Assembly: GCA_949055985.1 (NCBI GenBank)
Contig: CARRLP010000001.1
Location: 1-22,104, forward strand
DNA: 22,104 nucleotides
Direction: 5' to 3'
Origin: an uncultured Lachnospiraceae bacterium
Lineage (GTDB): Bacteria; Bacillota; Clostridia; Lachnospirales; Lachnospiraceae
This document shows, one piece after another, positions 1 through 21,243 of this stretch. The notes under the pieces are model-generated. The model was given only the letters and a program-made list of their open reading frames with translations, had not been told where the DNA came from and ran no database searches. Position 1 is the first letter of the stretch; every line of letters begins with the position of its first letter. The position numbers were made by a program, and so were the translations under genes.

Positions 1-1
1 C

Positions 2-196
2 AGGAGTATTCAGGCGGAAGGCTCTTTTGGCGAGTTAAAACAAGACATGCAATTCCGAAGATATTTGAGCAGGGGTACATCAAATGTTCTTGCTGAGAGT
101 GTTTTGCTTGCAATGGCAAGAAATGTAAACAAACTCCACAACAAGATACAAAAAGGGAAAACAGGAAAGCATTTATTCTCCTTGAAAAGCGCATAA
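2..196 (+). mobile_element. 3' end of a transposase gene, IS1182/IS5-like C-terminus, 5' end outside the window
   Basis: Frame 2 is open from the window edge to TAA at 194-196. Its translation ends ...QDMQFRRYLSRGTSNVLAESVLLAMARNVNKLHNKIQKGK, which matches the FRRFLLRG...KV...L.A.N..KL pattern seen at IS1182/IS5 transposase C-termini. An imperfect hairpin plus T-run follows at about 203-236. Confidence 0.45.
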
Positions 197-2114: not shown

Positions 2115-2141
2115 TAAAGTTTTCCAGTAGAGGGACGATAT
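2115..2141 (+). promoter_or_regulatory. sigma-28 (SigD/FliA) type promoter for flagellin
   Basis: TAAA (2115-2118), N15, GACGATAT (2134-2141), against the consensus TAAA-N15-GCCGATAT. It lies about 140 nt upstream of the flagellin ATG. Confidence 0.6.
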
Positions 2142-2282: not shown

Positions 2283-3395
2283 ATGGCAATGGTAGTACAG
2301 CACAACCTTACAGCAATGAACGCAAACCGTCAGTTAGGCGTTACAACAAGCGGACAGTCCAAATCAACAGAGAAATTATCCACAGGTTACAGAATTAACC
2401 GCGCAGGCGATGACGCAGCAGGATTAAAAATCTCTGAGAAAATGAGAAGCCAGATCCGCGGATTGAACAAAGCTTCTTCCAACGCGCAGGACGGCGTATC
2501 CCTTATCCAGACAGCAGAAGGCGCATTAAACGAAGCGCACAGCATCCTTCAGAGAATGAATGAGCTTGCAGTTCAGGGCGCAAACGACACAAACCAAGGC
2601 ATCGACCGTGACGCAATCAACCAGGAGTTAAGCGCGTTGACAGAAGAGCTTGACCGTATTTCTGAAACGACACAGTTCAATAAGCAGAGCCTGTTAGACG
2701 GAAGCTTCACAGGAAAGAACCTTCAGGTAGGCGCAAACCAGAACCAGAAGATTACAATCAACATTGCGGCAATGAACGCAGTGGCAATCGGAATCAAACC
2801 GACAGGCGTTGGCGGAACATCCGGATACCTGACAACAAATGAAGTTGTTAAGAATCAGAAGGTTGGCGTTGACAATTCTGCCGCTCTTAGAGGATCCATT
2901 GGTAAATTGGCAGCATGCAATGCTCAGGTAGCTCCAATCTACTCAGCAAACGCAGCAGGCAAACCATACTTCAAGACAGCAAATGGAACAATCACAACTG
3001 ATTCTTCTGTAGTAAGAGCATCTGTTGAGAACTTGGCAAAATGCGCTGCGCAGATCTTCAAAGTGGCAACAAAGGCTGCAACAACAGTCAGCACGCCAAA
3101 CGTAAGGGATTACCAGCAGGCAACAGGTACCATCACAATGGTACAGAACGCAATCAACAATGTATCCAGCCAGAGATCCGCTCTTGGCGCATTACAGAAC
3201 AGATTAGAGCACACGATTGCAAACTTAGACAACGTATCTGAGAATACACAGGCAGCAGAATCCCGTATCCGTGATACAGATATGGCTTCTGAAATGGTAG
3301 AATACAGCAAGAACAACATTCTTGCGCAGGCTGGACAGTCTATGTTAGCTCAGGCAAACCAGTCAAATCAGGGTGTATTATCATTGTTACAGTAA
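2283..3395 (+). CDS. fliC: flagellin (370 aa)
   Basis: The N-terminus MAMVVQHNLTAMNANRQLG and the C-terminus ...LAQANQSNQGVLSLLQ are canonical flagellin D0/D1 segments. The central region is Ser/Thr-rich and variable. GGAGG at 2269-2273 precedes ATG 2283. The ORF-track start at 2208 is an upstream TTG. Confidence 0.95.
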   Translation: MAMVVQHNLTAMNANRQLGVTTSGQSKSTEKLSTGYRINRAGDDAAGLKISEKMRSQIRGLNKASSNAQDGVSLIQTAEGALNEAHSILQRMNELAVQGANDTNQGIDRDAINQELSALTEELDRISETTQFNKQSLLDGSFTGKNLQVGANQNQKITINIAAMNAVAIGIKPTGVGGTSGYLTTNEVVKNQKVGVDNSAALRGSIGKLAACNAQVAPIYSANAAGKPYFKTANGTITTDSSVVRASVENLAKCAAQIFKVATKAATTVSTPNVRDYQQATGTITMVQNAINNVSSQRSALGALQNRLEHTIANLDNVSENTQAAESRIRDTDMASEMVEYSKNNILAQAGQSMLAQANQSNQGVLSLLQ

Positions 3396-3416
3396 TATTG
3401 AATTATTTAATAAAAA

Positions 3417-3443
3417 AGAGCCGGCGTTTGCCGGTTCTTTTTT
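3417..3443 (+). terminator. rho-independent terminator of flagellin
   Basis: Stem aGAGCCGGC/GCCGGtTCt around loop gttt (3426-3429), followed by a T6 run at 3438-3443, directly after the flagellin stop. Confidence 0.75.
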
Positions 3444-3453
3444 ATATAAAATC

Positions 3454-3480
3454 TAAAGTTTTTGTATGTATGTCCGATAT
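3454..3480 (+). promoter_or_regulatory. second sigma-28 type promoter, a duplicate of the flagellin promoter
   Basis: TAAA (3454-3457), N15, tCCGATAT (3473-3480), followed by TATAAT as in the first copy. Confidence 0.55.
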
Positions 3481-3515
3481 ATACTATAATGAAATCAACA
3501 TTTTTAAAATCTATT

Positions 3516-3587
3516 GTAGCAAGGAAGCTGCGCCAAATTCAGGGAGGAAAATTCATGGCATTCAAAATCTGGAATTATTTTACCTAA
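3516..3587 (+). other. duplicated flagellin-type CsrA leader (hairpin AAGGAA plus SD CAGGGAGGA) driving a 10-codon ORF MAFKIWNYFT (3555-3587)
   Basis: Segment 3517-3558 aligns almost base for base with 2241-2286, including the 11-mer aaggaagctgc. ATG is at 3555 and TAA at 3585-3587. Downstream there is no similarity to flagellin. Confidence 0.5.
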
Positions 3588-3620
3588 GTATAATTGAACA
3601 TTGAATAAGAAAAATATAGG

Positions 3621-3648
3621 TTGACAAATGTCAGCTTTTTATTATAAT
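3621..3648 (+). promoter_or_regulatory. sigma-A consensus promoter
   Basis: TTGACA (3621-3626), 16 nt, TATAAT (3643-3648). Both hexamers are perfect. It lies upstream of the 3687 ORF. Confidence 0.5.
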
Positions 3649-3686
3649 ACAAAAAAATATTGCTGGGCAATATGGAGGGGTATAGT

Positions 3687-4028
3687 ATGGAGGAATTTTC
3701 AAATTTATTGTGGCACAATATTGAAATTGTTCAGTGCATTTGTAATAAAATCGAGAATCAGGAAGCGTACATTGAGGATATTCGGGGATACCTTCCTTCT
3801 CTTAATCAAATGATTACATCAATATTTACAAATATGCAGCAAGGGCAAATTTCTTTGGAATTGAATCAAGGCTTTATTATTCAGGCGCTAAATGATATTC
3901 TATATGGAATAGAAAATGAAGATTCTGTATTTTTGCTTGATGTATTGCGATATGGGTTATTAGAAATTTATGGATACATAAGTAGTGAACTGCAAAGTGA
4001 GGGCTGTTATGAATCAGTTAATATATAA
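3687..4028 (+). CDS. hypothetical small protein (113 aa) upstream of maf and overlapping it
   Basis: ATG 3687 is preceded by GGAGGGG (3674-3680). The ORF-track start 3660 is a TTG. No motif recognised, including the FlaG VIRQIP motif. The 3' end overlaps the maf start by 20 nt. Confidence 0.5.
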   Translation: MEEFSNLLWHNIEIVQCICNKIENQEAYIEDIRGYLPSLNQMITSIFTNMQQGQISLELNQGFIIQALNDILYGIENEDSVFLLDVLRYGLLEIYGYISSELQSEGCYESVNI

Positions 4029-5907
4029 AAAAAATCTGGAGGCGTTAAATGCGAAATATCCTATATGGGCGGCTCTTATAGACGGGGTAAAACGTAAAAA
4101 ACGAAATTTCAATGTTGAAGCAGAGCAGAGTTTCATGGGAGAAACTATTTTGAAAGTAACTCAAGATGGGAAAATGCGTTACTTAAATGGAAAATATGCT
4201 CCTTCGGCAGTAGTGGAACGTTGGTTTGAAAAACAGGGAAAAATAGAAGAATACGCGCCAATTGTGATAATAGGCATTTCAAATGGAGAACATATACGAC
4301 AAATTATAGAACGCTCCCCAAAGACTTCTAATATTTTAATTTATGAGCCATCTTTTGAATTATTCCGCAGGGCGATGCAAGAAGTGGATTTAACATTTCT
4401 TTTTGAGATGGATATTCCGGTAGGGATTATTGTTGAGGGATTAAATGAAGATGAGTTAGAAGCTTTCCTTTATTTATTTATATCTTATGACAATATGGCT
4501 TTTCTTCGGTGGTATATTTCAGGGAATTATCAGGAATTATTTCCAAAAGAAGTGGAAGAATTTGTAGGACGTTTAAAGAATCATGTGTCACAAATCCATA
4601 TTGGCTGGAATACAAAATTACGTTATACAAATGTCAGGGCAGTAAATGTATTTGTCAATCTGCCATATTTAGCAGATGGATACAGCATTCGGGAATTGTA
4701 TGGAATGCTTCCGGAAGACGTTCCGGTTATTGTCGTTTCAGCAGGCCCATCTTTAAATAAAAACATTATGGAATTGAAAAAAGCAGTCGGGAAAGCCTGT
4801 ATTATTTCAACAGATACTGCGATAAAGCCTCTCTTAAATGCAGGAATCGTGCCGAATTTCTTTATTATTATAGATGGGTTAAAGCCGGAAGTGCTATTTC
4901 AACATAAGGATATATCTAAAGTTCCTATGGTGACTATGACGGCGGTTTCCACAGAGCCGATGTCATGCCATAAAGGGAAAAAATTCTTTTATGGCGCGGA
5001 GTCTGCATTTGAAGATGAACTTACGGGAGATATAAAGAGGAGCCGTGACGAAGACAGTGACAGAGTGATACCGTTTCTTGTAACTGGCGGTTCTGTTGCG
5101 ACTTCGGCATATGCGCTGGGTTTAAATATGGGAGCTAAGACAGTGATATTAGTGGGTCAGGATCTTGCAATGACCGGGAATAAAACGCATGCAGACGGTA
5201 CATTTCAGGCGCAGATGGATCAGATTGACAAAAATAGCGGCGAATACTTTGAAGTGGAAGCTATAGATGGCGGCAAGGTTTTGACGAGACTTGATTTTGA
5301 TATGTACCGTAAATGGTTTGAAGACCATTTTAAGCAGTGGAATCATGTCACAGTCGTAGATGCGACAGAAGGCGGAGCATTAATTCATGGAACGAAAGTA
5401 ATGACTTTAAAAAAGGCAGTTCAAAAATATTGTGTGCATGAATTTAATGTAAAGTGGCATACGGATCGCTGCAAAAAATTATTTCAAGATGAACAGCGGG
5501 AAGTTGTGTTGGATTATTTTGCAAATTCCCTAAAAAAATTACAGGAAGTGAAGAAAAAAGCGACAGAAGGGATTCGTTTCTATGAACGTCTGGAGAAGAT
5601 GGCGAAAAAAAGCTCGGTATCAGATCAGGAGCTTGGAAAGGCTTTGAAAAAAATCAAGAAATTAAATCATTATATGGAAACTGACTATATGGCGCGCACT
5701 GTTATGGATAGTTTAGATGGTCTAAATTTTACGTTAAGGCCGCTTGCTTATCAATTAAGAGAGGATAAACGGAGCGAGCTTTTAGATGTGGCTAGTCAGG
5801 GAAAAGTGCTACTTTACGGGGTGGCAGTTGCAGTAGATGAAGTATCTGAGATAGCGGAAAAGACGATTGTGCAGTACGCCAATTCCAACAGGACGAAACG
5901 GAAATAA
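4009..5907 (+). CDS. maf: motility accessory factor (Maf family, DUF115/MptE-like), a putative flagellin glycosyltransferase
   Basis: The N-terminus MNQLIYKKNLEALNAKYP is typical of Maf proteins. A GPSL motif (VVSAGPSLNKN) precedes STDTAIKPLLNAGIVPNFFIIIDG. The protein is about 630 aa and adjacent to flagellin. ATG 4009 has GAGGG upstream. Track start 3985 is GTG. Confidence 0.7.
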   Translation: MNQLIYKKNLEALNAKYPIWAALIDGVKRKKRNFNVEAEQSFMGETILKVTQDGKMRYLNGKYAPSAVVERWFEKQGKIEEYAPIVIIGISNGEHIRQIIERSPKTSNILIYEPSFELFRRAMQEVDLTFLFEMDIPVGIIVEGLNEDELEAFLYLFISYDNMAFLRWYISGNYQELFPKEVEEFVGRLKNHVSQIHIGWNTKLRYTNVRAVNVFVNLPYLADGYSIRELYGMLPEDVPVIVVSAGPSLNKNIMELKKAVGKACIISTDTAIKPLLNAGIVPNFFIIIDGLKPEVLFQHKDISKVPMVTMTAVSTEPMSCHKGKKFFYGAESAFEDELTGDIKRSRDEDSDRVIPFLVTGGSVATSAYALGLNMGAKTVILVGQDLAMTGNKTHADGTFQAQMDQIDKNSGEYFEVEAIDGGKVLTRLDFDMYRKWFEDHFKQWNHVTVVDATEGGALIHGTKVMTLKKAVQKYCVHEFNVKWHTDRCKKLFQDEQREVVLDYFANSLKKLQEVKKKATEGIRFYERLEKMAKKSSVSDQELGKALKKIKKLNHYMETDYMARTVMDSLDGLNFTLRPLAYQLREDKRSELLDVASQGKVLLYGVAVAVDEVSEIAEKTIVQYANSNRTKRK

Positions 5908-5987: not shown

Positions 5988-6971
5988 TTATTTTAGGTAC
6001 TTGAACCAATCTTCCGTGGCATCGACAATGGTATCCGGCGTCCATACAGGAGCTTTCCGCCAATAGTCAATGTTTTCAAGGACTTTGCTAACGCCATCTT
6101 CAAATGAGATTTTAGGCTCCCATCCCAGAACATCATGAATTTTTGAAGTGTCAGCAAATGTGCAGTCGGGTTCTCCGGGTCTTTTTGGGATATTTGTGAT
6201 TTCACCGCCCAATAGTTCACACAGCCTGTTTATAGAGTAGGTTCCTCCGCTTCCAACGTTGAATGTGTCTTGTTTGATATCCGACATAGCGGCTGTATAA
6301 AAAGCGTCGACAATATCTGTTACATATGTAAAGTCCCTTGTTTGAGTTCCATCTCCTACAACGGTAAATGGTTTGTTGGCTAGTTTTTGGGCTAAAAATA
6401 CGCCAAATACAGCCCCATAAGTGCCGGAAGTCCTCGATCTTGTGCCATATACGTTGAATAGTCTCAAAGTAATCACAGGAAGACCGTAGACTTGCCCCCA
6501 GTGCAAGATGGTTTCTTCCCCTAATCTTTTTGTAAGGGCATAAGGATACTGTGGCCTGATTTCGGCTGTTTCTCTGGTAGGGTATTGGTCAGGAATGCCA
6601 TAACAGGAAGATGAAGCGGCATAAAGCAGCTTTTTGATATTTGTGTTTTTCGCGCATTCCACTACATTAAACGTTCCTAGGACATTAGAGGAGTAATAAT
6701 CTTGAGGCCTCTGAATAGATGGAACGATGTCGGCTAATGCCGCAAAGTGGAAAATGTAGTCCACATCTTTAAAAATAGGCTGGATTTCCTCCTTATTTCG
6801 AATGTCCATTTGATAGATGCTGAGATTTTTGTGGCCTTTGAGGTGATCTAGGTTTTCTAATCTTCCAGTGCTTAAATTATCAATTACGCGGACGTCATGC
6901 CCTTCAGATAAAAGCCTATCCACCATATGGGAGCCAATAAATCCGCACCCGCCTGTAACCAGTGACGTCAT
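5988..6971 (-). CDS. NAD-dependent epimerase/dehydratase (extended SDR), candidate nucleotide-heptose epimerase or modifying enzyme
   Basis: GxxGxxG motif TGGCGFIGSHMV at the N-terminus. A YxxxK motif (PYALTK) is present. ATG at 6971 forms an ATGA overlap with the gmhB stop. Confidence 0.75.
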   Translation of the reverse strand: MTSLVTGGCGFIGSHMVDRLLSEGHDVRVIDNLSTGRLENLDHLKGHKNLSIYQMDIRNKEEIQPIFKDVDYIFHFAALADIVPSIQRPQDYYSSNVLGTFNVVECAKNTNIKKLLYAASSSCYGIPDQYPTRETAEIRPQYPYALTKRLGEETILHWGQVYGLPVITLRLFNVYGTRSRTSGTYGAVFGVFLAQKLANKPFTVVGDGTQTRDFTYVTDIVDAFYTAAMSDIKQDTFNVGSGGTYSINRLCELLGGEITNIPKRPGEPDCTFADTSKIHDVLGWEPKISFEDGVSKVLENIDYWRKAPVWTPDTIVDATEDWFKYLK

Positions 6972-7531
6972 ATACTGTTTCCTTCCTTTCTTTCTAATAT
7001 TTTAATAAAGTCCCTCAAATCTTTCAATGTATAATCGGGAACTACTATTTCTTCTAGGCGCGCAACTCCATAACCGGAATCAAGCAATACCGTTTTTAAG
7101 TTCGCATTTTCGCCAAGCCGTATATCACATGCGCGATCTCCAACTACATAAGAGCCATTCATAGTTATTTGAAAATCTGAACAGGCTTTTTCTAACATAC
7201 CTATAGCGGGTTTGCGGCAATTACAATTAAAGGCATAGCCTTGTATCACGCCTTTTTGATGATGTGGGCAGTAATACACAGCATCAACTCCTGTCTCTTG
7301 TATGAGATATTGATTCATGGAGAGAAGCGTTTCTTCCGTGAAATAACCGCGCGCAATCCCGCTTTGGTTAGAAACGACAATCGCATAGTAACCATAAGTA
7401 TGTATTTTTTCTATACAGCTTTTGGAGTATGGGAAAATTTCCAGCTCATTTGTGGAACGGATATAGCTTTTTTCTTTAGTAAGAACGCCATCTCTATCAA
7501 GGAAAATAGCGGGTTTTGCTTTCTTTTTCAA
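6968..7531 (-). CDS. gmhB: D-glycero-D-manno-heptose 1,7-bisphosphate phosphatase (HAD family)
   Basis: The FLDRDGVL HAD motif I and CPHH...CNCRKP are both typical of GmhB. The apparent TTG start at 7531 overlaps the gmhA TGA stop by 2 nt (TTGA). There is no in-frame ATG upstream of the FLDRDG motif. Confidence 0.8.
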   Translation of the reverse strand: MKKKAKPAIFLDRDGVLTKEKSYIRSTNELEIFPYSKSCIEKIHTYGYYAIVVSNQSGIARGYFTEETLLSMNQYLIQETGVDAVYYCPHHQKGVIQGYAFNCNCRKPAIGMLEKACSDFQITMNGSYVVGDRACDIRLGENANLKTVLLDSGYGVARLEEIVVPDYTLKDLRDFIKILERKEGNSI

Positions 7532-8109
7532 ATGGATGCCCCTTCACTTTCTAATATCATATCTACTATTTGTTGTAAAATTAAATTATGGGCTGATTCC
7601 ACAATGCCATATTTACTGCAAGGAGTATAGACGTTAATATCGCCTAATTGCCTTGCCTTATTGTCAGGGCTAAAACCTGTAAATGTAATGACTTTTGCAT
7701 TTTTTGCTTTGGCTGTTTGAATTGCATTGATAATATTTTGTGAATTGCCTGAACTGCTGATTGCCACGACTAAATCATCTTTTTTTACAAGAAAATCCAT
7801 TGGTTTTGAAAATATATATTCATAACCATAATCGTTGCCAATGCAGGTTGTCAAAGCGTTATCATACAGGTTATATGCGTTCATTTTTCCGTTTTTCATA
7901 AAATCTGCCGCCATATGGCTGGCAATGGCAGCGCTGCCGCCGTTTCCTACGAAAAAGAGATTTGAGCAGAAACGTTTATGTTCAAGAAAAACATCAAAAA
8001 GCATTTGGATGCCTTCTGTGTAGGTTTCGTGGTATGAACCGTCTTTTTTTTGTATTTTCGTTGATTCTAATGTTTGTATAAATGTGTTAATATAATTATT
8101 TTGCAGCAT
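7528..8109 (-). CDS. gmhA: phosphoheptose (sedoheptulose-7-phosphate) isomerase, SIS domain
   Basis: FVGNGGSAAIASHMAADF is the SIS nucleotide-sugar isomerase motif. The protein is 193 aa. It is the first gene of the leftward cassette. Confidence 0.8.
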   Translation of the reverse strand: MLQNNYINTFIQTLESTKIQKKDGSYHETYTEGIQMLFDVFLEHKRFCSNLFFVGNGGSAAIASHMAADFMKNGKMNAYNLYDNALTTCIGNDYGYEYIFSKPMDFLVKKDDLVVAISSSGNSQNIINAIQTAKAKNAKVITFTGFSPDNKARQLGDINVYTPCSKYGIVESAHNLILQQIVDMILESEGASI

Positions 8110-8272
8110 AATAATCGCTTCTTTCTGATAATTATTTATAATGTATTAGTATATCACAGGAGTATAGCATGTAACAAGAATTTTTTGTAATGATTCCTGT
8201 TATTGATTTCTGTTATAAATAATAGAAATGGTTAGAATGAAATAATTCGTAAATGATTGTATTTAATATGTA

Positions 8273-8300
8273 TAAAGTTAAATTAAGGATAAGCCGATAA
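8273..8300 (+). promoter_or_regulatory. candidate sigma-28 type promoter for the rightward sugar-biosynthesis operon
   Basis: TAAA (8273-8276), N16, GCCGATAA (8293-8300). The spacer is 1 nt longer than consensus and there is one mismatch in the -10. Confidence 0.35.
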
Positions 8301-8369
8301 AAAGAATAAGAGTTAAATTGCGTTTTCTATCAGCATGGAAGCTGTATTTTATTCAGGGAGGAAGAAGAA

Positions 8370-8483
8370 ATGACGAAAAGGAAAGACATGCAGCGAAAAA
8401 TTGCATGGGGGGGGGAAAATCAGAATCTACTAAAAAGTGGAAAAAAATTCAAACTTTATATGGATTATCTCAAGAGACGTTAG
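8370..8483 (+). CDS. leader small ORF (37 aa) containing a G9 tract, a candidate phase-variable upstream peptide
   Basis: GGGAGG (8355-8360) lies 9 nt before ATG 8370. The SD context ttcagggagga echoes the duplicated flagellin leader. Codons tgg ggg ggg gaa span the G9 at 8407-8415. A +1 G fuses it to the long frame ending at 8605. Confidence 0.3.
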   Translation: MTKRKDMQRKIAWGGENQNLLKSGKKFKLYMDYLKRR

Positions 8484-8719
8484 GGGCAATTTTTTTGTTG
8501 CCTTTTTTTTGGTGTCTGCCGTTTGATCCGGTTATGGCTTGTAAAGGATATAAGTGTGTTGGGATAAGAATGGATAAGAATTGTTGGAAGGACGCCTATG
8601 TTTGAAACAAAGACAGCATGGGAAACGCAGTGAATATACTACAATTCTTTTTTTGCGTTTTATAACATTTTTTGCAACAGAAGATAATATGCCAAAATAG
8701 CTGGGAAGAAGGAATTAAA

Positions 8720-10300
8720 ATGAATTTAGAAGCTGAATTTGAACGGTTAAAAACATGTTCCCGTATTTTGATTTGGGGCGGCGGTTATCATACGAAAGAG
8801 GCGCTAAGGTTTTATAAATCTTTTTTTAGGGAACGGGACATACAGATTGTAGATAAGAATAAGGCAGGCCAAAGCATAGAAGGATATAAAATTATTGCTT
8901 CAGATGAAGCAGATTATTCGATTGATTATGTTGTGATTATGTCGTCAATATACCATGATGAAATTGAATATGCTTTGCGGAACAGACATGGTTATCAAGG
9001 GGCAGTGATAGGTTTATATGCGTTTCGGAGAGTTCTTTTAAAACTGGATTCATATGAAGAATGTATTGGGCATATGGAAGATTTTGTGTCTCATATGGAA
9101 CAAGGCATAGCAAGTTATTCTTACGACTATATATTTCAAGAAAACTATAGCGTATATAAAAAAATAAGGCTATATGCGTTTTGGGCGTCTTCTATTGGTG
9201 AATCAGTCCGGTATTTATCGGCATATTATGAAACTGTTTTTAAGGATAAGGCAGAAGATGAATACTGCCTGTTAATTCCCTATATAAAAGGGAATGATTT
9301 CGCGAATGGGCAATTTATAGAGGTTGTTTCCCGTACAGTTCCTATGGTTACATATTGCAACTGTCATTTTTGGGAGTATGCGGTGAAAAAGTACAGAGAG
9401 CGTTTTGATTTGACGTCTTATAATGAATTTAACGGTATTTTAGTGGATGCATATAATCAATTTGATGAACGGATTATAAACAGGACGTTTTGTGATAAAA
9501 AGTTTCCTTTGATTGCCTATACGCCGGAAGAACGTAAGATGGCGGAATATAAATTAAGGCAAATGGGCGTTTTTGGAGATTTCGTGTGTATATTTGCAAG
9601 AGATAACCACTATTTGCAGCATCAGTATGGACAGGCTTATGGAATTAATGAAATAAGAAATATGGATATCAATTCTTTTAAATCTGCAGTGGATTATTTG
9701 GAGGGACAGGGAGTAAAGGCAGTCCGCATGGGAAAAGTTGTCAACGGGCCGGTCAATCTGCCAAACTGCATAGATTATGCGGCGGATTTCCATAGCGACT
9801 TTATGGATTTATATTTATGCGGTAATTGCAAGTTTTATGCAGGGAGTTTGTCTGGGATTGTTGCGCTTGCCCAGCTTCAAAGCGCGCCTGTGGTTTTGCT
9901 CGGGGTGGTTCAGCTGGGGATTCACAATTCAATACCATATAGGAGCAGAGATATTTACGTCCCAAAGAAAATATATGACAAAAATAAGAAACGTTTTTTA
10001 AATTTTACGGAAATATGGGATGCGGAAATGGCCGCTAAGGACAAAATATCAAAATATTATGGGGAACACGGGCTTGAGTTTATAGAGCTTGGCAAAGAAG
10101 AAATAAAAGAAGCGATAGTGGAGATGAACGATAAATTAGATGGAGTGTATCAGGAAGACGAACAGGAAAAAGAACTTCAAAAGAAATATCATTTGCTGTT
10201 GGAAAACTGGATATTAGAGAATGGATACCAGTATTCTTATTTCTTGCATATTGACATAAGCGGCAGTTTTATTAAAAAGAATACATTTATGCTTGCATAG
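8720..10300 (+). CDS. hypothetical 526-aa protein, first gene of the rightward operon; possibly a sugar-transferase-like protein
   Basis: ATG 8720 is preceded by GGAAGAAGGAA. The ORF-track start 8672 is a TTG. No confident motif. The Rossmann-like N-terminus ILIWGGGYHTKEAL...IQIVDKN is suggestive only. Confidence 0.6.
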   Translation: MNLEAEFERLKTCSRILIWGGGYHTKEALRFYKSFFRERDIQIVDKNKAGQSIEGYKIIASDEADYSIDYVVIMSSIYHDEIEYALRNRHGYQGAVIGLYAFRRVLLKLDSYEECIGHMEDFVSHMEQGIASYSYDYIFQENYSVYKKIRLYAFWASSIGESVRYLSAYYETVFKDKAEDEYCLLIPYIKGNDFANGQFIEVVSRTVPMVTYCNCHFWEYAVKKYRERFDLTSYNEFNGILVDAYNQFDERIINRTFCDKKFPLIAYTPEERKMAEYKLRQMGVFGDFVCIFARDNHYLQHQYGQAYGINEIRNMDINSFKSAVDYLEGQGVKAVRMGKVVNGPVNLPNCIDYAADFHSDFMDLYLCGNCKFYAGSLSGIVALAQLQSAPVVLLGVVQLGIHNSIPYRSRDIYVPKKIYDKNKKRFLNFTEIWDAEMAAKDKISKYYGEHGLEFIELGKEEIKEAIVEMNDKLDGVYQEDEQEKELQKKYHLLLENWILENGYQYSYFLHIDISGSFIKKNTFMLA

Positions 10301-10349
10301 CATTCTGGCGGGAACAAAATTTGATGAATAAACAGGGGGAATTTGAATT

Positions 10350-11411
10350 ATGGCAGATAAAATCCGAATGGATTCGCACAAATTAATTTATCATCCAGAG
10401 AGGGTTGCGGCTTGGAAGCGTGGAGAAAATATATATCCGATTGAATTGGAAATAGGATTAACAAACGCCTGTAATCATAGATGCATTTTTTGCGCAGTGG
10501 ATTATACAGGTTACAAACCGACAATGCTTGAGGCGGATCTTTTAAAATTAAGGATCAGTGAGTTTGCAGAAAAAGGAGTGAAATCTATTATATATGCCGG
10601 AGAAGGGGAACCGCTTTTAAATAAAGACGCGGCAGATATTATTAATTTCACGAAAAAAAGCGGAATAGATGCGGCGTTATCTACAAATGGAGCATTGCTT
10701 ACGCCGGAAGCATCGAGAGACTGTCTGGCTTCTTTGACATGGATTCGTTTTAGTACGGCCGCAATTAGAGAAAAAACGTATGAGAAAATCCATCAATGCC
10801 GGAAAGGAGAGCTTAAAACTGTTTTAAATAATATTCAGGAAGCAGTCCGGACGAAAAAAGATCAAGGGCTCAAAACGACGATTGGCGCGCAATTATTGCT
10901 TCTGCCGGATAATAAAGATGAAGTTGTGGAGATGGCGAAGGAAATGAAAAAAATAGGAGTGGATTATTTTACGGTAAAACCATTTTCGCAGCATCCGTCA
11001 AGCGGCAATATCTTGCAAGTGGATTATCAGGAATTACTGGAATTGGAACGGGAATTAGAAGGAATTGGAACGGAAGAATTTAAAATATATTTCCGGGCGC
11101 ATTCTATGAAGAAATTGGCATGTGAGCGCGGTTATAAGCAATGTCTGGCGCTGCCATTTATGGTATACATTGATGCGAAGGGGAATTTATGGCCCTGTAT
11201 TGTGTTTATGGGGCAGGAACAGTTTAGTTATGGAAATTTATATAATGCATCATTTGAAGAAATATGGGAAGGAGAGCGGAGGAAGAAGCTGATTCAAGAG
11301 TTTTCCCAGATGGATTTAGAGAAAAATTGCAGGGAGTTGTGCAGGCTGGATGAAATGAATAAGTATCTCAATGATTTGAGAAATCCCGGACTTCATGTAA
11401 ATTTTATATAG
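10350..11411 (+). CDS. radical SAM protein (paralog A) with a Cys-rich C-terminal region
   Basis: CNHRCIFC is a CxxxCxxC motif about 40 aa from the N-terminus. Further Cys residues lie in the C-terminal third, possibly for an auxiliary cluster. The protein ends ...HVNFI. It is a clear paralog of the 13218 gene. Confidence 0.75.
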   Translation: MADKIRMDSHKLIYHPERVAAWKRGENIYPIELEIGLTNACNHRCIFCAVDYTGYKPTMLEADLLKLRISEFAEKGVKSIIYAGEGEPLLNKDAADIINFTKKSGIDAALSTNGALLTPEASRDCLASLTWIRFSTAAIREKTYEKIHQCRKGELKTVLNNIQEAVRTKKDQGLKTTIGAQLLLLPDNKDEVVEMAKEMKKIGVDYFTVKPFSQHPSSGNILQVDYQELLELERELEGIGTEEFKIYFRAHSMKKLACERGYKQCLALPFMVYIDAKGNLWPCIVFMGQEQFSYGNLYNASFEEIWEGERRKKLIQEFSQMDLEKNCRELCRLDEMNKYLNDLRNPGLHVNFI

Positions 11412-11461
11412 TATCCGTTTATTCCAATAGGAGAATAAATTTTAAGAGTTAGGAGAGAACG

Positions 11462-12307
11462 ATGGATTTAAAAGAGCGGGCGGCTGAAATAAGAAAAATG
11501 ATTTTTAAAATGGCATACCGGGGAGGGAGCGGGCATTTGGCATCGGCTTTTTCGATTGTGGAAATTTTAACGGTTTTATATTTTGGGGGAATTTTAAATA
11601 TAGATCCGAAAAATCCGGATTGGGCGCAAAGGGATAAATTGATATTAAGCAAGGGACACGCGAGTTTGGCATTATATAGTGTATTGGGTATGAAGGGATT
11701 TTTTCCACAAAAAGAGTTACAGACTTTTTGCAAGCCGGGTTCAGAATTCGGAGGAGAACCCAGAATGGGGCATATAACGGGCGTAGAGGCGACTACAGGC
11801 TCGCTTGGGCATGGGCTTTCATTTGGCGTGGGGATTGCAATGGCGCATAAGATGAATGGGGAAGCGAACAGGACATATGTGATAATTGGAGATGGCGAAT
11901 GCCAAGAAGGAAGCATATGGGAAGCTGTAATAGCGGCGCCGCACCACAAACTAGACAATTTGACAGTGATTTTAGATAATAACAGGCTACAGGCAATGGG
12001 GAAAGTGGAGGATATTCTTGCGTTGCGCCGCCTGCGGGAAAGCTGGGAAAATTTCGGCTGGGGCATCGCAACAGTAGATGGGCACGATATAGAAAAGCTT
12101 TGTAAATGTCTGGATAAGGACAGACAAACGGAGGATGGCAGACCGCATTTAATTTGTGCGGATACAGTGAAAGGAAAAGGCGTTTCCTTTATGGAAAGCG
12201 AGCCCATCTGGCATTATCGGATGCCGAATGAACAGGAATTAGAAATTGTATTGCAAGATTTGGGCATGACAAGAGAGGAGCTGATTCAATGCGAAATGAA
12301 TATTTAG
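11462..12307 (+). CDS. transketolase, N-terminal (TPP-binding) subunit
   Basis: GHITGVEATTGSLGHGLSFGVGIAMA and VIIGDGECQEGSIWEA are the transketolase TPP-binding motifs. The protein is 281 aa. AGGAGA precedes the ATG. Confidence 0.85.
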   Translation: MDLKERAAEIRKMIFKMAYRGGSGHLASAFSIVEILTVLYFGGILNIDPKNPDWAQRDKLILSKGHASLALYSVLGMKGFFPQKELQTFCKPGSEFGGEPRMGHITGVEATTGSLGHGLSFGVGIAMAHKMNGEANRTYVIIGDGECQEGSIWEAVIAAPHHKLDNLTVILDNNRLQAMGKVEDILALRRLRESWENFGWGIATVDGHDIEKLCKCLDKDRQTEDGRPHLICADTVKGKGVSFMESEPIWHYRMPNEQELEIVLQDLGMTREELIQCEMNI

Positions 12308-13212
12308 CGGAACTATATCATCTTGCAAAAAATGATCGGAATGTGCTTTCTTTAGTGTCCGATAATGGCATGATTGTATATGATGAATTTCGGGCGGCTT
12401 TTCCAGAGCAATATTTTAATTTTGGCATTTCAGAATGCCATATGATTGCGGCGGCGGCAGGAATGGCGACATGTGGGAAAATTCCTTTTGCATATACAAT
12501 TAGTTCATTTTTGGCGTACCGGGCATACGAATTTTTAAGGCTGGACGTATGTCTGGAAAATTTGAATGTAAAGATAGTTGGAATAGGCACAGGCGTATCT
12601 TATGGCTATTTAGGCCCTACGCATCATACGACAGAGGATTTGGCTCTTTTGCGATCACTGCCTAATTTGACTATATTTTCTCCGGCAAGCCCAATGGAAG
12701 CGCGCGAGGCGGTACGGGCTGCATATCAAATAAAGGGACCTGTCTATATCCGGCTTGGCAGCAGCGGGGAACCGGAGGTTCATACGGAAAAATTTTCTTT
12801 TGAAATTGGGAAAGGGCAGGTCATATTTGACGGGCATGACATTGCGCTGATAACTTCAGGGGCAATCACGGCTGAAGCGAAAATAGCGGCGGAGCGGCTT
12901 ATGGAAGAAGGAATATCAGTTAAGCTGATTAGTATGCACACGATAAAGCCTTTTGATGAGGATCTTATAGCAAAAACGGCTGAAAAGGTTTCTAAATTAG
13001 CTGTAATAGAAGAACATAATATTATCGGCGGGTTAGGAAGCGCAGTGGCTGAGACATTAGCAGACAGGCAGATTGCAATTCCTTTTTATAGAATTGGGTT
13101 ATATGATCAATTTGCAAAAGGCTATGGAACGGGACAACAGGTACGGATGCAAAATAGGCTGGACAGTGAAGGGATTTATCAACAAATCAGCCAATATGTA
13201 AAGGAAGGATGA
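12289..13212 (+). CDS. transketolase, C-terminal (pyrimidine-binding) subunit
   Basis: FNFGISECHMIAAAAGMATCG is the transketolase Pyr-domain motif. The protein is 307 aa. It overlaps the N-subunit gene by 19 nt. GAGGAG precedes the ATG. Confidence 0.85.
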   Translation: MRNEYLAELYHLAKNDRNVLSLVSDNGMIVYDEFRAAFPEQYFNFGISECHMIAAAAGMATCGKIPFAYTISSFLAYRAYEFLRLDVCLENLNVKIVGIGTGVSYGYLGPTHHTTEDLALLRSLPNLTIFSPASPMEAREAVRAAYQIKGPVYIRLGSSGEPEVHTEKFSFEIGKGQVIFDGHDIALITSGAITAEAKIAAERLMEEGISVKLISMHTIKPFDEDLIAKTAEKVSKLAVIEEHNIIGGLGSAVAETLADRQIAIPFYRIGLYDQFAKGYGTGQQVRMQNRLDSEGIYQQISQYVKEG

Positions 13213-13217
13213 CAAAA

Positions 13218-14327
13218 ATGGAGTCAGAAAAATTAATATTAGACGGCAGTAAAGTATTATGGCACAAAGATAGAATAGAGCAATGGAAAAGGGGGGAGCG
13301 TTTTGCGCCTGTTACGATTGATTGCGCGCTGACTACGAAATGCAGTTACCGCTGTGTGTATTGTTATGGAAAAATGCAGTGCATAAACCAGTCGGATAAT
13401 CTTGACGAAGAAACAATTTTACGCTTTTTAGAGGATGCGGCGGAAATAGGAGTAAAAGCGGTTAGTTTTGTAAGCGATGGAGAAAGCACATGTAACCCAC
13501 ATTTGAAAAAAGCGGTTTTACATGGCAAGAGCCTTGGATTAGATATGGCTCTTGGCACAAATGGCTTTTTGTTAAAAGATGAGGAATTAGAGGAAATTTT
13601 GCCGGCGCTTACTTATCTGCGTTTTAATATATCGGCTGGGGAGAGGGAACGATATGCCGAAATTCATGGCTGCGCCTTAAAATGCTATGATAAAGTAATT
13701 GAAACGATGAAAAAAGCGGTAGATATTAGGGAGAAGAAAGATCTGGCGGTTACAATTGGAATGCAAATGGTTTTAATGCCGGATTTTGCAGATCAGATTC
13801 TTCCGCTTACAAAGTTAGGCAGAGAGATTGGCGTGGATTATCTCGTGATTAAACATTGTAGTGATGATGAGGAAGGCACGCTTGGCGTAAATTACGAAAA
13901 ATATGATGCCGTGATTCCGGTTTTAAAGGAAGCGGAAACTTATTCTACGGATAAGTATCAGGTTTCGGCAAAATGGTCAAAGATTTTAAGCCATGGGAAG
14001 AAAAGTTACTGTAAGTGTTTTGGAGCCCCCTTTATTCTTCAAATGTCGGGTACGGGCCTTGTGGCTCCTTGTGGAATGTTTTTCAATGAGAAATACAGTA
14101 AATACCATATTGGAAATATTAAGGAAAAGAGATTTAAAGAGATATTTGAAAGCGACAGGTATTGGGAAGTTATGAAAATGATAACAGACGAAACTTTTGA
14201 TCCAAACCGCGATTGCGGTACGCTCTGTCTTCAGCATAAAACAAATGAGGCATTGTGGAAGATCTATCAAACAGGGACAATTCCAAAGAGTCCGGAAATT
14301 GAACCGAATCATATTAATTTTATATAA
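13218..14327 (+). CDS. radical SAM protein (paralog B) with a Cys-rich C-terminal region
   Basis: CSYRCVYC is a CxxxCxxC motif. Its N-terminus and C-terminus (...HINFI) align with paralog A. ATG 13218 has AAGGAAGG 9 nt upstream. The track start 13209 abuts that RBS, so 13218 is preferred. Confidence 0.75.
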   Translation: MESEKLILDGSKVLWHKDRIEQWKRGERFAPVTIDCALTTKCSYRCVYCYGKMQCINQSDNLDEETILRFLEDAAEIGVKAVSFVSDGESTCNPHLKKAVLHGKSLGLDMALGTNGFLLKDEELEEILPALTYLRFNISAGERERYAEIHGCALKCYDKVIETMKKAVDIREKKDLAVTIGMQMVLMPDFADQILPLTKLGREIGVDYLVIKHCSDDEEGTLGVNYEKYDAVIPVLKEAETYSTDKYQVSAKWSKILSHGKKSYCKCFGAPFILQMSGTGLVAPCGMFFNEKYSKYHIGNIKEKRFKEIFESDRYWEVMKMITDETFDPNRDCGTLCLQHKTNEALWKIYQTGTIPKSPEIEPNHINFI

Positions 14328-14366
14328 ATTTCAGAAATCTGGAAAAATAAGCATGGAGGCTGAAAA

Positions 14367-15896
14367 ATGGCACTTGTTGTGACAAAAGCGGAATTTAGGA
14401 ATATAAGAAAGGAATTGCGGGCGGAAGGGAAGAAAGTGGTTCTCTGCCATGGCGTATTTGATTTAGTGCATCCCGGCCATATCATTCATTTTGAAGAAGC
14501 AAAAAAGATGGGGGACGTTTTAGTGGCGTCTGTCACGGCGGCAAAATATGTGAGAAAAGGTCCGGATAGGCCGTATTTTGGAGATGAGATGCGTCTGAAA
14601 TTTTTATCTTCGATTGCGTATATTGATTATATTCTTTTGTCAGAGGGCTTTACTGTAGATGATATTATTGAAGCGGCGGAGCCGGACTTGTATGTAAAAG
14701 GCTCGGAGTATCAGGCGCAAGAAGATGACATTACCGGAAAGATTGCCGGAGAAATAGAGCTGGTCCGTAAACATGGAGGGGAAATTGCTTATACAGGCGG
14801 GCAGGTGTTTAGTTCAACGAAACTAATCAACCATGCTTTTCCATCACTTTCTGAGGAAGTGAAACAATTTATGAAATCATTTTCAGATAAGTATAGTTTA
14901 TCTGAAATCAGAGCGCTGGCGGAAAAAATTTCGGGCTTTAAGATAGCGGTAATTGGAGACGTAATTATAGATGAATATATTTATTGCAATGTACAGGGGT
15001 TAATGTCGAAAGACAGGGGATATTCTGCCCGTTATAGATATGTGGAGCAGTATTTAGGCGGTTCGTTAGCCGTGGCGAGGCATATTGCCTCATTTTGTGA
15101 CGACGTCACTCTTTTGAGCGTTGTAGGGAAAGAGGAGGCGGTACATAGCCGGATGTTAGACGAACTTGGCGATAAGATGAGGATAGACGTAACGTTTAGC
15201 GATGTTTTTGAAACCATTATAAAAACACGGTACGTTTCCATGAATGAAAAACGGGAAGAGCTTGATAAAATTTTCGCTGTAAATAACCTTCCTGTATATA
15301 TGCGCATTGATAAACCTGCATTAGATAAGTTTAAAGAAAAAATAAAAGAGAAAATAGAACAGTGTGACGTGGTTATTTTGTGTGATTTTGGGCATGGGCT
15401 GATAGATGAAGAAGTGATGGATTTGATTCAGTCTAAGGCGAAGTTTTTAGCGTTGAACTGCCAGACTAATTCATCGAATTATGGAAAAAATTTAATTACA
15501 AAATATAAACGGGCAGATGTATTTGCGATTGACCAGAAAGAATTGGGGCTGGCATTTGCGAATTACCGTTTAGATGAGCAAGAGCTTCTTCAGAAGTTAG
15601 AAAAACATTTGGACTGCCATGGGTGGCTGACACAGGGATCCCAAGGGGCAGTTTCGATTGAAGATGGAGAAATAAAACATTGTCCGGCATTTGTTTTAAA
15701 AGTGAAAGACACCATTGGAGCAGGGGATGCGTTCTTTTCCATTGCAAGCTTATTTGCGGCAGCAGGCGCTTCCATGGAGATGGGAACATTTATGGGAAAT
15801 ATTGCGGGGGCATTGGCGACAAATATCGTAGGAAACAAAAAAGGCATTGATAAAGTAGATGTACTGAAGTACGCTTCTACTTTACTTAATATATGA
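14367..15896 (+). CDS. bifunctional heptose-phosphate nucleotidyltransferase / sugar kinase (HldE/RfaE-like) with reversed domain order
   Basis: The N-terminal 140 aa carry a cytidylyltransferase-like HxGH motif (GVFDLVHPGHIIHF). The C-terminal 330 aa form a PfkB-family kinase with a DTIGAGDAF anion-hole motif. In E. coli HldE the kinase is N-terminal. Confidence 0.7.
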   Translation: MALVVTKAEFRNIRKELRAEGKKVVLCHGVFDLVHPGHIIHFEEAKKMGDVLVASVTAAKYVRKGPDRPYFGDEMRLKFLSSIAYIDYILLSEGFTVDDIIEAAEPDLYVKGSEYQAQEDDITGKIAGEIELVRKHGGEIAYTGGQVFSSTKLINHAFPSLSEEVKQFMKSFSDKYSLSEIRALAEKISGFKIAVIGDVIIDEYIYCNVQGLMSKDRGYSARYRYVEQYLGGSLAVARHIASFCDDVTLLSVVGKEEAVHSRMLDELGDKMRIDVTFSDVFETIIKTRYVSMNEKREELDKIFAVNNLPVYMRIDKPALDKFKEKIKEKIEQCDVVILCDFGHGLIDEEVMDLIQSKAKFLALNCQTNSSNYGKNLITKYKRADVFAIDQKELGLAFANYRLDEQELLQKLEKHLDCHGWLTQGSQGAVSIEDGEIKHCPAFVLKVKDTIGAGDAFFSIASLFAAAGASMEMGTFMGNIAGALATNIVGNKKGIDKVDVLKYASTLLNI

Positions 15897-15934
15897 TGAT
15901 TCTAAAGATATATTTATAAAATGGAGGGTAAGAA

Positions 15935-17575: not shown

Positions 17576-17592
17576 GAAAAGGATTTCCGCCA

Positions 17593-19256: not shown

Positions 19257-19260
19257 GATC

Positions 19261-20193: not shown

Positions 20194-20203
20194 ATTCTTC
20201 CTC

Positions 20204-21217: not shown

Positions 21218-21243
21218 CGTTGTACCTCCGTGTGGTCTGCTTT

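What the first reader, a model, noticed from the sequence alone, without database searches (positions are those of the whole stretch)
3454..3587. Duplicated flagellin promoter plus CsrA-type leader now fronting a 10-codon ORF
The sequence shows that 3454-3480 repeats the sigma-28 promoter and 3517-3558 repeats the flagellin leader, both the AAGGAA hairpin and the SD-overlapping GGA site. The ATG GCA start is preserved, but the reading frame then diverges from flagellin and stops after 10 codons (MAFKIWNYFT). The first inference is that this is the scar of a deleted or recombined tandem flagellin paralog. The second is that it places the downstream genes (small ORF and maf) under flagellar sigma-28 and CsrA/FliW-type control. 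It could also act as a CsrA-titrating decoy leader.
Basis: partly seen in the sequence, partly recalled or inferred. Interest (0 to 1): 0.6.

Follow-up and report, generated by a model that had tools for sequence, protein, structure and literature searches.

The report
Flagellin-style control region before glycosylation genes
The extra copy of the flagellin promoter and leader is real, but it is an old, conserved control region in front of the genes that add sugars to flagellin, not a recent deletion scar.

Summary
Window 3454-3480 is a sigma-28-type promoter. Window 3515-3557 repeats the flagellin leader: a hairpin with a GGA loop, a GGA-containing ribosome-binding site, and ATG GCA (local alignment z=15). 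A 10-codon ORF follows.

It is not a recent scar. A conspecific strain with two tandem flagellin genes carries the identical element after the second gene. At least nine other Lachnospiraceae lineages have an orthologous element upstream of the same operon (small DUF8042 gene plus Maf glycosyltransferase), two of them with no flagellin gene next to it. Silent sites are saturated (29-45% identity). The promoter, hairpin, ribosome-binding site and a weak terminator stay 70-92% identical, while the peptide is not conserved.

A third copy at 8273-8510 heads the next glycosyltransferase operon. fliW and csrA lie 7 kb upstream in a conspecific genome.

My best reading (confidence 0.5): a flagellin gene reduced to its regulatory shell, kept as the sigma-28, CsrA-type leader and leaky attenuator of the glycosylation operon. 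A free-standing CsrA decoy RNA is not excluded. No transcript or binding data exist. I rate it a new variant of a known kind, of moderate interest.

The parts
2115..2141 (+). Sigma-28-type promoter of the flagellin gene (TAAA, 15 nt, GACGATAT). Reference copy.
   Evidence: Consensus -35 TAAA and -10 MCGATAa for this bacterial group is quoted in PMC3720852.
2242..2285 (+). Flagellin leader core: hairpin GCAGC-AAGGAA-GCTGC (2242-2257), ribosome-binding site AAGGAGGAA (2267-2275), ATG 2283. Flagellin CDS is 2283-3395.
   Evidence: Flagellin_N and Flagellin_C; 65.7 bits.
3410..3445 (+). Strong intrinsic terminator of the flagellin gene (about -20.6 kcal/mol). It separates the flagellin transcript from the element.
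   Evidence: (inverted repeat I6).
3454..3480 (+). Sigma-28-type promoter of the element: -35 TAAA 3454-3457, -10 TCCGATAT 3473-3480. The predicted start near 3488 is inferred.
   Evidence: CCGATA is invariant in 9 aligned copies. The block is 70-83% identical across species with saturated silent sites.
3516..3531 (+). Hairpin SL1: GTAGC-AAGGAA-GCTGC. GGA is displayed in the loop, a CsrA BS1-type site.
   Evidence: Covariation over 24 leaders: 92% of cells paired, 5 of 6 pairs with compensatory changes, 0 of 500 shuffles reach the score.
3538..3549 (+). Ribosome-binding site TTCAGGGAGGAA with two overlapping GGA (BS2-type site), 20-23 nt after the loop GGA.
   Evidence: GGAGGAA invariant; 83-92% identity.
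3555..3587 (+). Ten-codon ORF (MAFKIWNYFT). The start codon is conserved; the peptide is not. Probably a ribosome-loading or decoy ORF.
   Evidence: Orthologs have 10-31 codons with unrelated peptides; 9 of 10 keep ATG or GTG.
3618..3642 (+). Weak terminator-like hairpin (8 bp with two G-U pairs, about -9 kcal/mol) followed by a T-run. Proposed leaky terminator or attenuator.
   Evidence: (100% paired in 7 species, one compensatory change).
3621..3648 (+). Sigma-70-type promoter TTGACA, 16 nt, TATAAT. Its -35 lies in the 5' arm of the terminator hairpin.
   Evidence: 12 of 12 consensus positions. A similar -35/-10 pair is present in 9 of 10 long-form orthologs, read.
3657..3680 (+). Hairpin ATATTGC-TGG-GCAATAT abutting the ribosome-binding site GGAGGGG of the small ORF. 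The stem is conserved in L001 with a different loop.
3687..4028 (+). Small ORF (113 aa, DUF8042-like in relatives). First gene of the controlled operon; it overlaps maf by 20 nt.
   Evidence: PF26154 is weak in relatives.
4009..5907 (+). Maf-type flagellin glycosyltransferase (MptE-like).
8273..8510 (+). Paralogous third module. Promoter TAAA, 16 nt, GCCGATAA (8273-8300). Hairpin with ATGGAA loop (8330-8345). TTCAGGGAGGAAG (8353-8364). ATG 8370. G9 tract 8407-8415. Stop 8481-8483 inside terminator 8482-8510. Upstream of a TIGR04372 glycosyltransferase.
   Evidence: 50.5 bits.

Best explanation
The element is the conserved regulatory 5' region of the flagellin-glycosylation operon (small DUF8042 gene plus maf). 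It is built from the regulatory shell of a flagellin gene.

Proposed mechanism; every step below is inferred:
1. RNA polymerase carrying the flagellar sigma factor (sigma-28) starts near 3488.
2. The leader displays the same two GGA sites as flagellin mRNA: one in the hairpin loop and one over the ribosome-binding site.
3. CsrA, once released from FliW, would therefore bind it as it binds flagellin mRNA.
4. Ribosome loading on the short, sequence-free ORF would decide how much transcript survives or passes the weak terminator at 3618-3642 into DUF8042-maf.
5. A sigma-70-type promoter embedded in that terminator would give basal expression.

Shown here: the sequence features, their conservation under selection, their linkage to the operon, and csrA and fliW in the same locus.
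Not shown: transcription start, read-through, CsrA binding, and the coupling between ORF translation and termination.
For: - Significant similarity to the flagellin leader.
- Orthologous long-form elements lie upstream of DUF8042-maf in L001, L004, L019/L038, L022, L036, L040, L042 and L045. In L004 and L038 there is no adjacent flagellin gene.
- Four-fold degenerate sites in Maf are 29-45% identical, which is saturation.
- Against that, the promoter is 70-83% identical, the hairpin 69-88%, the ribosome-binding site 83-92% and the terminator 71-83%. The spacer between promoter and hairpin is 36-64%.
- Hairpin covariation is strong.
- The terminator hairpin is fully paired in 7 species, with conserved G-U pairs that work only on the + strand RNA.
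- It is half as stable as flagellin terminators: -8 to -13 against -18 to -21 kcal/mol.
- Short forms (L005, L043, L006) carry the sigma-28 promoter and GGA hairpin directly in front of DUF8042 with no terminator.
- A paralogous module heads the next glycosyltransferase operon in the window. A promoter-plus-terminator copy does the same in L001.
- fliW and csrA lie 7 kb upstream in a conspecific genome whose element is 291/291 identical.
Against: - A terminator-like hairpin and a consensus sigma-70-type promoter sit between the element and the operon. The sigma-28 unit could therefore be a self-contained small RNA gene.
- The distance from the ORF stop to the hairpin varies from -69 to +47 nt. 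It is 30 nt in the window, too far for a terminating ribosome to mask the hairpin.
- No conserved antiterminator was found.
- L035 and the second L001 copy keep the promoter and terminator but have lost the hairpin, ribosome-binding site and ORF. The CsrA-type part is therefore dispensable in at least one lineage.
- There are no transcript or binding data.
Confidence: 0.5

Rival explanations
1. A free-standing small RNA of about 150 nt. It would be transcribed by sigma-28 from about 3488 and end at the terminator near 3640. By mimicking the flagellin leader it would act in trans as a CsrA decoy, easing repression of flagellin mRNA when late flagellar genes switch on.
For: - The unit is complete: promoter, structured RNA with a GGA loop and a GGA ribosome-binding site, then hairpin and T-run.
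- The operon has its own sigma-70-type promoter downstream.
- GGA is about twofold enriched in long forms, 4-8 per 150-220 nt.
- There are two such units in the island.
- There is precedent: the C. jejuni flaA leader titrates CsrA (PMC4894983).
Against: - Orientation and linkage to DUF8042-maf are kept even when the element is moved away from flagellin. Short forms lack any terminator. Both point to cis action.
- There is only one GGA hairpin plus the ribosome-binding site, far from the repeated hairpins of CsrB/RsmZ.
- The terminator is weak.
- The start codon is retained in 9 of 10 copies, which a pure decoy would not need.
- The abundant flagellin mRNA already carries the same sites.
Confidence: 0.22
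2. A non-functional relic: the decaying remains of a flagellin gene whose coding part was deleted, with no present role.
For: - The short ORF is not conserved as a peptide, and its length is what chance gives in AT-rich DNA.
- The L001/L035 lineage shows decay: GTG start, frameshift, then loss of the hairpin, ribosome-binding site and ORF.
- The terminator matches the position and sequence of flagellin terminators in relatives without the element.
Against: - Silent sites are saturated between these genomes. Yet the promoter hexamers, hairpin (with compensatory changes), ribosome-binding site, start codon and terminator persist in at least 8 lineages.
- The element is identical across strains.
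- A paralogous copy sits before a second operon.
Confidence: 0.08
3. A real micro-protein gene: the 10-residue peptide MAFKIWNYFT is the functional product.
For: A good ribosome-binding site and start codon are conserved. A (K/R)(I/V)W(N/K) motif recurs in three lineages.
Against: - Peptides in orthologs are unrelated in length and sequence (10 to 31 residues). L001 is frameshifted with the same nucleotides, and L006 has no ORF.
- The shared TCTGGA is equally well explained by pairing with UUCAGG.
Confidence: 0.03

Closest known systems
Flagellin mRNA leaders controlled by CsrA and FliW (B. subtilis hag, Yakhnin 2007; C. difficile fliC, PMC8523840)
   Same: Sigma-28/SigD promoter. One GGA site upstream in a hairpin and a second over the ribosome-binding site about 20-24 nt later. 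csrA and fliW in the flagellar locus.
   Different: Here the leader fronts a 10-codon, non-conserved ORF followed by a weak terminator and a glycosylation operon, not a flagellin gene. The 5' part of the leader is 65 nt shorter than in the neighbouring flagellin gene.
C. jejuni flaA mRNA as a dual-function CsrA antagonist (PMC4894983)
   Same: A flagellin leader with GGA hairpins that can titrate CsrA as well as be repressed by it.
   Different: In C. jejuni the titrating RNA is the full flagellin mRNA. Here it would be a leader detached from any flagellin coding sequence. Titration is untested here.
CsrB/CsrC and RsmX/Y/Z sponge RNAs
   Same: A possible short non-coding transcript with its own promoter and terminator that carries GGA motifs.
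   Different: Only one GGA hairpin plus a ribosome-binding site, 4 GGA in 158 nt. No Rfam match. A start codon is retained.
Leader-ORF transcription attenuators (pyrBI or trp type; from my own knowledge)
   Same: Short ORF, then an intrinsic terminator, then the operon. In L042, L022, L045, L040 and the window's third module, the ORF ends in or within 11 nt of a terminator hairpin.
   Different: In the window the gap is 30 nt. No conserved antiterminator exists. The trigger would be CsrA occupancy of the ribosome-binding site rather than tRNA or nucleotide supply.
CsrA- and flagellar-sigma-dependent expression of a Maf-type glycosyltransferase in H. pylori (jhp0106, PMC5368276)
   Same: A flagellin glycosyltransferase tied to the flagellar regulatory cascade and to CsrA.
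   Different: In H. pylori the control is reported to run through CsrA acting on RpoN. No flagellin-leader copy is involved.
5' stem-loop plus ribosome-binding-site mRNA stabilisers of Firmicutes (aprE leader, STAB-SD; from my own knowledge)
   Same: A 5'-proximal hairpin and a strong ribosome-binding site whose occupancy, not its product, matters for the downstream mRNA.
   Different: Those stabilisers are not known to be CsrA-gated or copied from flagellin leaders. A stabilising role here is only a possibility.

Membership tests
Sigma-28 (FliA/SigD) dependent promoter | -35 TAAA and -10 (G/M)CGATA(A/T), separated by about 15 nt | tested here: met
   TAAA, 15 nt, TCCGATAT at 3454-3480. CCGATA is invariant in 9 copies. 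The consensus is quoted in PMC3720852.
Sigma-28 (FliA/SigD) dependent promoter | Transcription start and dependence on the sigma factor shown experimentally | not testable with these tools
   No transcriptome or mutant data are available.
CsrA/FliW-controlled flagellin leader | GGA in the loop of a conserved hairpin (BS1) | tested here: met
   Hairpin 3516-3531 with loop AAGGAA. Covariation over 24 leaders.
CsrA/FliW-controlled flagellin leader | Second GGA overlapping the ribosome-binding site within bridging distance | tested here: met
   GGGAGGAA at 3542-3549, 20-23 nt after the loop GGA.
CsrA/FliW-controlled flagellin leader | csrA and fliW present in the genome | tested here: met
   A conspecific genome whose element is 291/291 identical has fliW (149 aa) and csrA (71 aa) 7 kb upstream. 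The window itself does not reach that far.
CsrA/FliW-controlled flagellin leader | The leader controls a flagellin coding sequence | tested here: not met
   A 10-codon ORF with no residual flagellin coding similarity in any ortholog.
CsrA/FliW-controlled flagellin leader | CsrA binding and translational repression demonstrated | not testable with these tools
   Needs a gel shift, footprint or reporter assay.
CsrB/Rsm-type CsrA sponge RNA | Many repeated GGA hairpins in a non-coding transcript | tested here: not met
   One GGA hairpin plus the ribosome-binding site. 4 GGA in 158 nt against 1.7 expected. No Rfam hit.
Leader-ORF transcription attenuator | Short ORF followed by an intrinsic terminator upstream of the regulated operon | tested here: met
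   ORF 3555-3587, hairpin plus T-run 3618-3642, operon from 3687.
Leader-ORF transcription attenuator | ORF translation physically or structurally coupled to terminator formation (overlap or alternative antiterminator) | tested here: inconclusive
   Stop-to-hairpin distance is 30 nt in the window. It is -69 to +11 nt in 5 of 10 copies and 19-47 nt in the rest. No conserved antiterminator appears in the consensus fold.
Flagellin pseudogene | Recognisable remnant of flagellin coding sequence | tested here: not met
   Smith-Waterman of the region after the start codon against the flagellin gene: all z between -0.8 and 1.7 in 7 orthologs.

The most novel reading that the evidence does not exclude
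The two sigma-28-driven leader mimics in the glycosylation island (3454-3642 and 8273-8510) are released as short RNAs that act in trans as CsrA antagonists. That would make them the first RNA decoys of CsrA in a FliW-type (Firmicutes) system, evolved by stripping a flagellin gene down to its leader. A related alternative is that they are CsrA-gated translational attenuators, a mode of CsrA action on transcription termination not described before.
Probability: 0.2. Interest if true: 0.75.

Novelty: new variant of a known kind. Interest (0 to 1): 0.5.

Why it matters
Flagellin must be glycosylated in the cytoplasm before export, so the glycosylation machinery has to be matched to flagellin synthesis.

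If this leader works as proposed, gut Lachnospiraceae achieve the match by re-using the flagellin gene's own promoter and CsrA-type leader in front of the glycosyltransferase operons. This would extend the flagellin-FliW-CsrA homeostasis circuit beyond flagellin itself.

It also gives a concrete example of a gene reduced to its regulatory shell and kept for that role.

These bacteria are major sources of immunologically active flagellin in the gut. A cultured relative carries the element: the L038-type copy belongs to Lachnospiraceae bacterium KK002. The idea is therefore directly testable.

Tried and rejected
- Rfam, at gathering and at permissive thresholds: only terminator noise.
- Residual flagellin coding sequence after the start codon: none in 7 orthologs.
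- Conserved micro-peptide: rejected, because the peptides are unrelated and one lineage is frameshifted.
- Recent scar of the strain-level tandem flagellin deletion: rejected, because the two-flagellin strain has the identical element.
- Uniform ribosome-over-terminator geometry: not found; distances run from -69 to +47 nt.
- Conserved antiterminator: none. The consensus fold gives only SL1, the terminator and a weakly supported SL2 (UUCAGG with UCUGGA), which has no double-sided covariation.
- Unusual overall RNA stability: none, z = -0.02.
- CsrB-like GGA density: only about twofold enrichment.
- Part of an unrelated conserved gene on either strand: no. Only spurious ORFs overlap it.
- Further copies in the window: the covariance model finds exactly three. 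The site at 14350 is only a ribosome-binding site inside a 3-bp hairpin.
- Literature search: no description of such an element in Lachnospiraceae.

Full report
**Context.** The window is a flagellin glycosylation island of a mouse- or human-gut Lachnospiraceae; sources label it 'Eubacterium sp.'. Its gene order:
- a glycosyltransferase on the minus strand (469-1998);
- flagellin (2283-3395);
- a 113-aa ORF (3687-4028, DUF8042-like in relatives);
- a Maf-type glycosyltransferase (4009-5907);
- sugar-nucleotide genes, several radical-SAM enzymes and further glycosyltransferases.

- The flagellin gene has TAAA, 15 nt, GACGATAT at 2115-2141. The element has TAAA, 15 nt, TCCGATAT at 3454-3480.
- Both fit the sigma-28 consensus used for this bacterial group: -35 TAAA, -10 MCGATAa (PMC3720852).
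- The leader repeat 3515-3551 against 2241-2277 is 86% identical over 37 nt.
- A local alignment of 2100-2290 against 3440-3590 scores 56. Dinucleotide shuffles give 18.5 +/- 2.5, so z=15.
- The start ATG GCA is shared, and the ORF stops after 10 codons.
- The repeat is partial. The flagellin leader has about 100 nt between its -10 and the hairpin; the element has 35 nt. Nothing after the start codon resembles flagellin.

**It is not a recent scar.**
- A conspecific contig (L017) carries two nearly identical tandem flagellin genes, each with its own promoter and leader. The same element still follows the second gene.
- The window's single flagellin has the upstream flank of copy 1 and the downstream flank of copy 2. 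The 291-nt intergenic region holding the element is identical in both strains.
- Copy number therefore changes by recombination between the flagellin genes, without touching the element.

**It is conserved across species and travels with the glycosylation operon.**
- I fetched loci through Maf and through the small ORF.
- Orthologous long-form elements are present in L001/L018, L004, L019/L038, L022, L036/L037, L040/L041, L042 and L045.
- In every case the order is the same. Sigma-28 promoter, then a hairpin with an A(A/U)GGA(A/G) loop, then TTCAGGGAGGAAG, then ATG or GTG. After that comes a short ORF, a hairpin with a T-run, and the small ORF and maf.
- In L004 and L038 the upstream neighbour is not a flagellin gene. 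The element belongs to the operon, not to the flagellin 3' end.
- Four-fold degenerate sites in Maf are only 29-45% identical between the window and these genomes, which is saturation.
- The element's functional blocks are 70-92% identical, while the spacer between promoter and hairpin is 36-64%.
- The hairpin is supported by covariation over 24 flagellin and element leaders: 92% of cells paired, 5 of 6 pairs with compensatory changes, and no shuffle of 500 reaching the score.
- Element copies share signatures that flagellin leaders lack: CAGGGAGG instead of CAAGGAGG, a shorter distance to the start codon, and a shorter 5' part. They are therefore orthologous to one another and derive from an old duplication.

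**The peptide is not the point.**
- Orthologous ORFs have 10 to 31 codons and unrelated sequences. L001 carries the same nucleotides with a GTG start and a frameshift. L006 has no ORF.
- A start codon at the right distance is nevertheless kept in 9 of 10 copies.
- A recurrent TCTGGA a few codons in can pair with UUCAGG just before the ribosome-binding site. This would place the site and the AUG in a loop. Support for that second hairpin is weak.

**The downstream hairpin.**
- Window 3618-3637 plus a T-run forms an 8-bp hairpin that includes two G-U pairs.
- It is fully paired in seven species, with one compensatory change. The G-U pairs are invariant, and they pair only in the + strand RNA.
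- It is about half as stable as flagellin terminators: -8 to -13 against -18 to -21 kcal/mol.
- Its 5' arm doubles as the -35 of a consensus sigma-70-type promoter, TTGACA, 16 nt, TATAAT. A similar -35/-10 pair is seen in 9 of 10 long forms.
- In relatives that lack the element (L012, L013, L020, L023, L024, L029), the flagellin terminator sits directly upstream of the small ORF and reads GAGTTGRC...GYCAACTC. This is the same position and nearly the same sequence.
- The simplest history is that the flagellin gene once preceding the operon lost its coding part and left promoter, leader and terminator.

**Variants that bear on function.**
- L005 and L043 have the sigma-28 promoter and the GGA hairpin directly in the 5' UTR of the small ORF, with no terminator. 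L006 is similar.
- L002 and L044 keep only a GGA hairpin just before the ribosome-binding site.
- L035, and a second copy in L001 at 13734-13841, keep the promoter and terminator but lack the hairpin, ribosome-binding site and ORF.
- The most widely shared feature is therefore a sigma-28-type promoter pointing into a glycosylation operon. It is present in all forms except the L002/L044 short forms, where none is evident. The GGA hairpin is frequent but can be lost.
- The window holds a third module at 8273-8510 with the same signature. Its ORF stops inside a terminator, and it lies upstream of the next glycosyltransferase operon.
- A covariance model of the leader core finds exactly these three sites in the window.

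**CsrA and FliW.** A conspecific genome with an identical element encodes fliW and csrA 7 kb upstream, in the order flgK, flgL, fliW, csrA, flaG, fliD, fliS. The two-site layout matches the hag and fliC leaders, which have BS1 and BS2 about 24 nt apart (PMC8523840). It also matches the GGA-loop rule (PMC4894983).

**Mechanism I commit to (confidence 0.5).** The element is the sigma-28-dependent, CsrA-type leader of the DUF8042-maf operon. It times and scales glycosylation capacity with flagellin synthesis. The weak terminator acts as a leaky attenuator. Ribosome loading on the decoy ORF, blocked when CsrA is free, would favour read-through or mRNA survival. The embedded sigma-70-type promoter would give a basal level.

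**What weakens it.**
- The window's 30-nt gap between the stop codon and the hairpin.
- The lack of a conserved antiterminator.
- The fact that promoter, RNA and terminator form a complete unit on their own.

**Rivals.** The main rival is a free-standing CsrA decoy RNA (0.22). A dead relic (0.08) and a micro-protein (0.03) are unlikely given the conservation pattern.

**Comparison with known systems.**
- It works like a flagellin leader under CsrA/FliW control, but it fails the membership feature of controlling a flagellin gene.
- It is not a CsrB/Rsm-type sponge by architecture.
- It resembles leader-ORF attenuators in layout, but the coupling is unproven.
- No Rfam family matches, and I found no description in the searched literature.
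- I rate it a new variant of a known kind, with moderate interest (0.5).

Noticed in passing
window 8273-8510 (G tract 8407-8415): The third leader copy is followed by an ORF containing a G9 run. With G9 (window, L032) the ORF is 37 codons and stops inside the terminator hairpin. A conspecific contig (L033) has G10, which shifts the frame so that the ORF runs through the terminator to 8605 (78 codons). This could be phase variation of an attenuator, or an assembly error.
   Followed up: partly
window 2283-3395; L017 1251-3709: Flagellin copy number differs between conspecific strains. L017 has two nearly identical tandem genes. The window has one, with the upstream flank of copy 1 and the downstream flank of copy 2, as expected from unequal recombination. 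The central variable region (about nt 500-700 of the gene) differs between strains.
   Followed up: yes
window 3621-3648: A perfect sigma-70-type promoter (TTGACA, 16 nt, TATAAT) is embedded in the terminator hairpin; its -35 is the 5' arm. The same arrangement recurs in most orthologs, and weaker versions sit on flagellin terminators of relatives that lack the element.
   Followed up: partly
window 1-196 and 469-1998; L046 5690-6765: The window begins with the 3' end of a transposase-like gene (DDE family in L032). A conspecific genome instead has fliS and a 212-aa ORF at that place. This looks like an insertion sequence between the flagellar cluster and the glycosylation island in this strain.
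   Followed up: partly
window 14350-14381: AGCATGGAGGCT, the flagellin hairpin core with one change, forms a 3-bp hairpin whose loop is the ribosome-binding site of the kinase/cytidylyltransferase gene (ATG 14367). That gene begins MALVV, like flagellin's MAMVV. It scores below threshold with the leader model and is possibly chance.
   Followed up: partly
L001 13734-13841: A second sigma-28 promoter plus AGTTGGC...GTCAGCT hairpin and T-run, without the GGA hairpin or ORF. It heads the next + strand region of that genome's island. The promoter-terminator unit is itself repeated within a genome.
   Followed up: partly
L008 3964-4239; L002 3975-4571: In two Agathobacter-like genomes a csrA homologue lies immediately upstream of the flagellin gene that precedes the small ORF and maf.
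   Followed up: partly
window 3687-4028 and 4009-5907: The 113-aa ORF has no significant Pfam hit for this sequence (DUF8042 hits are weak in relatives). It is always found directly upstream of maf, overlapping it by 4 to 20 nt, across about 140 homologues. It may be an uncharacterised partner of the glycosyltransferase.
   Followed up: partly
window 5988-21996: The island combines heptose-type genes (SIS isomerase, HAD phosphatase, kinase/cytidylyltransferase) with a split transketolase, a TPP enzyme, three radical-SAM/SPASM enzymes and a B12-radical-SAM enzyme. This suggests an unusual, heavily modified flagellin sugar.
   Followed up: no
L011 8560-8625: In a distant relative (Maf 38% identical) a sigma-28-like -10 (GCCGATAT) and a GGAGGAA ribosome-binding site, without the hairpin, precede the gene after maf. 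This hints that sigma-28 control of glycosylation genes is general in this family.
   Followed up: no
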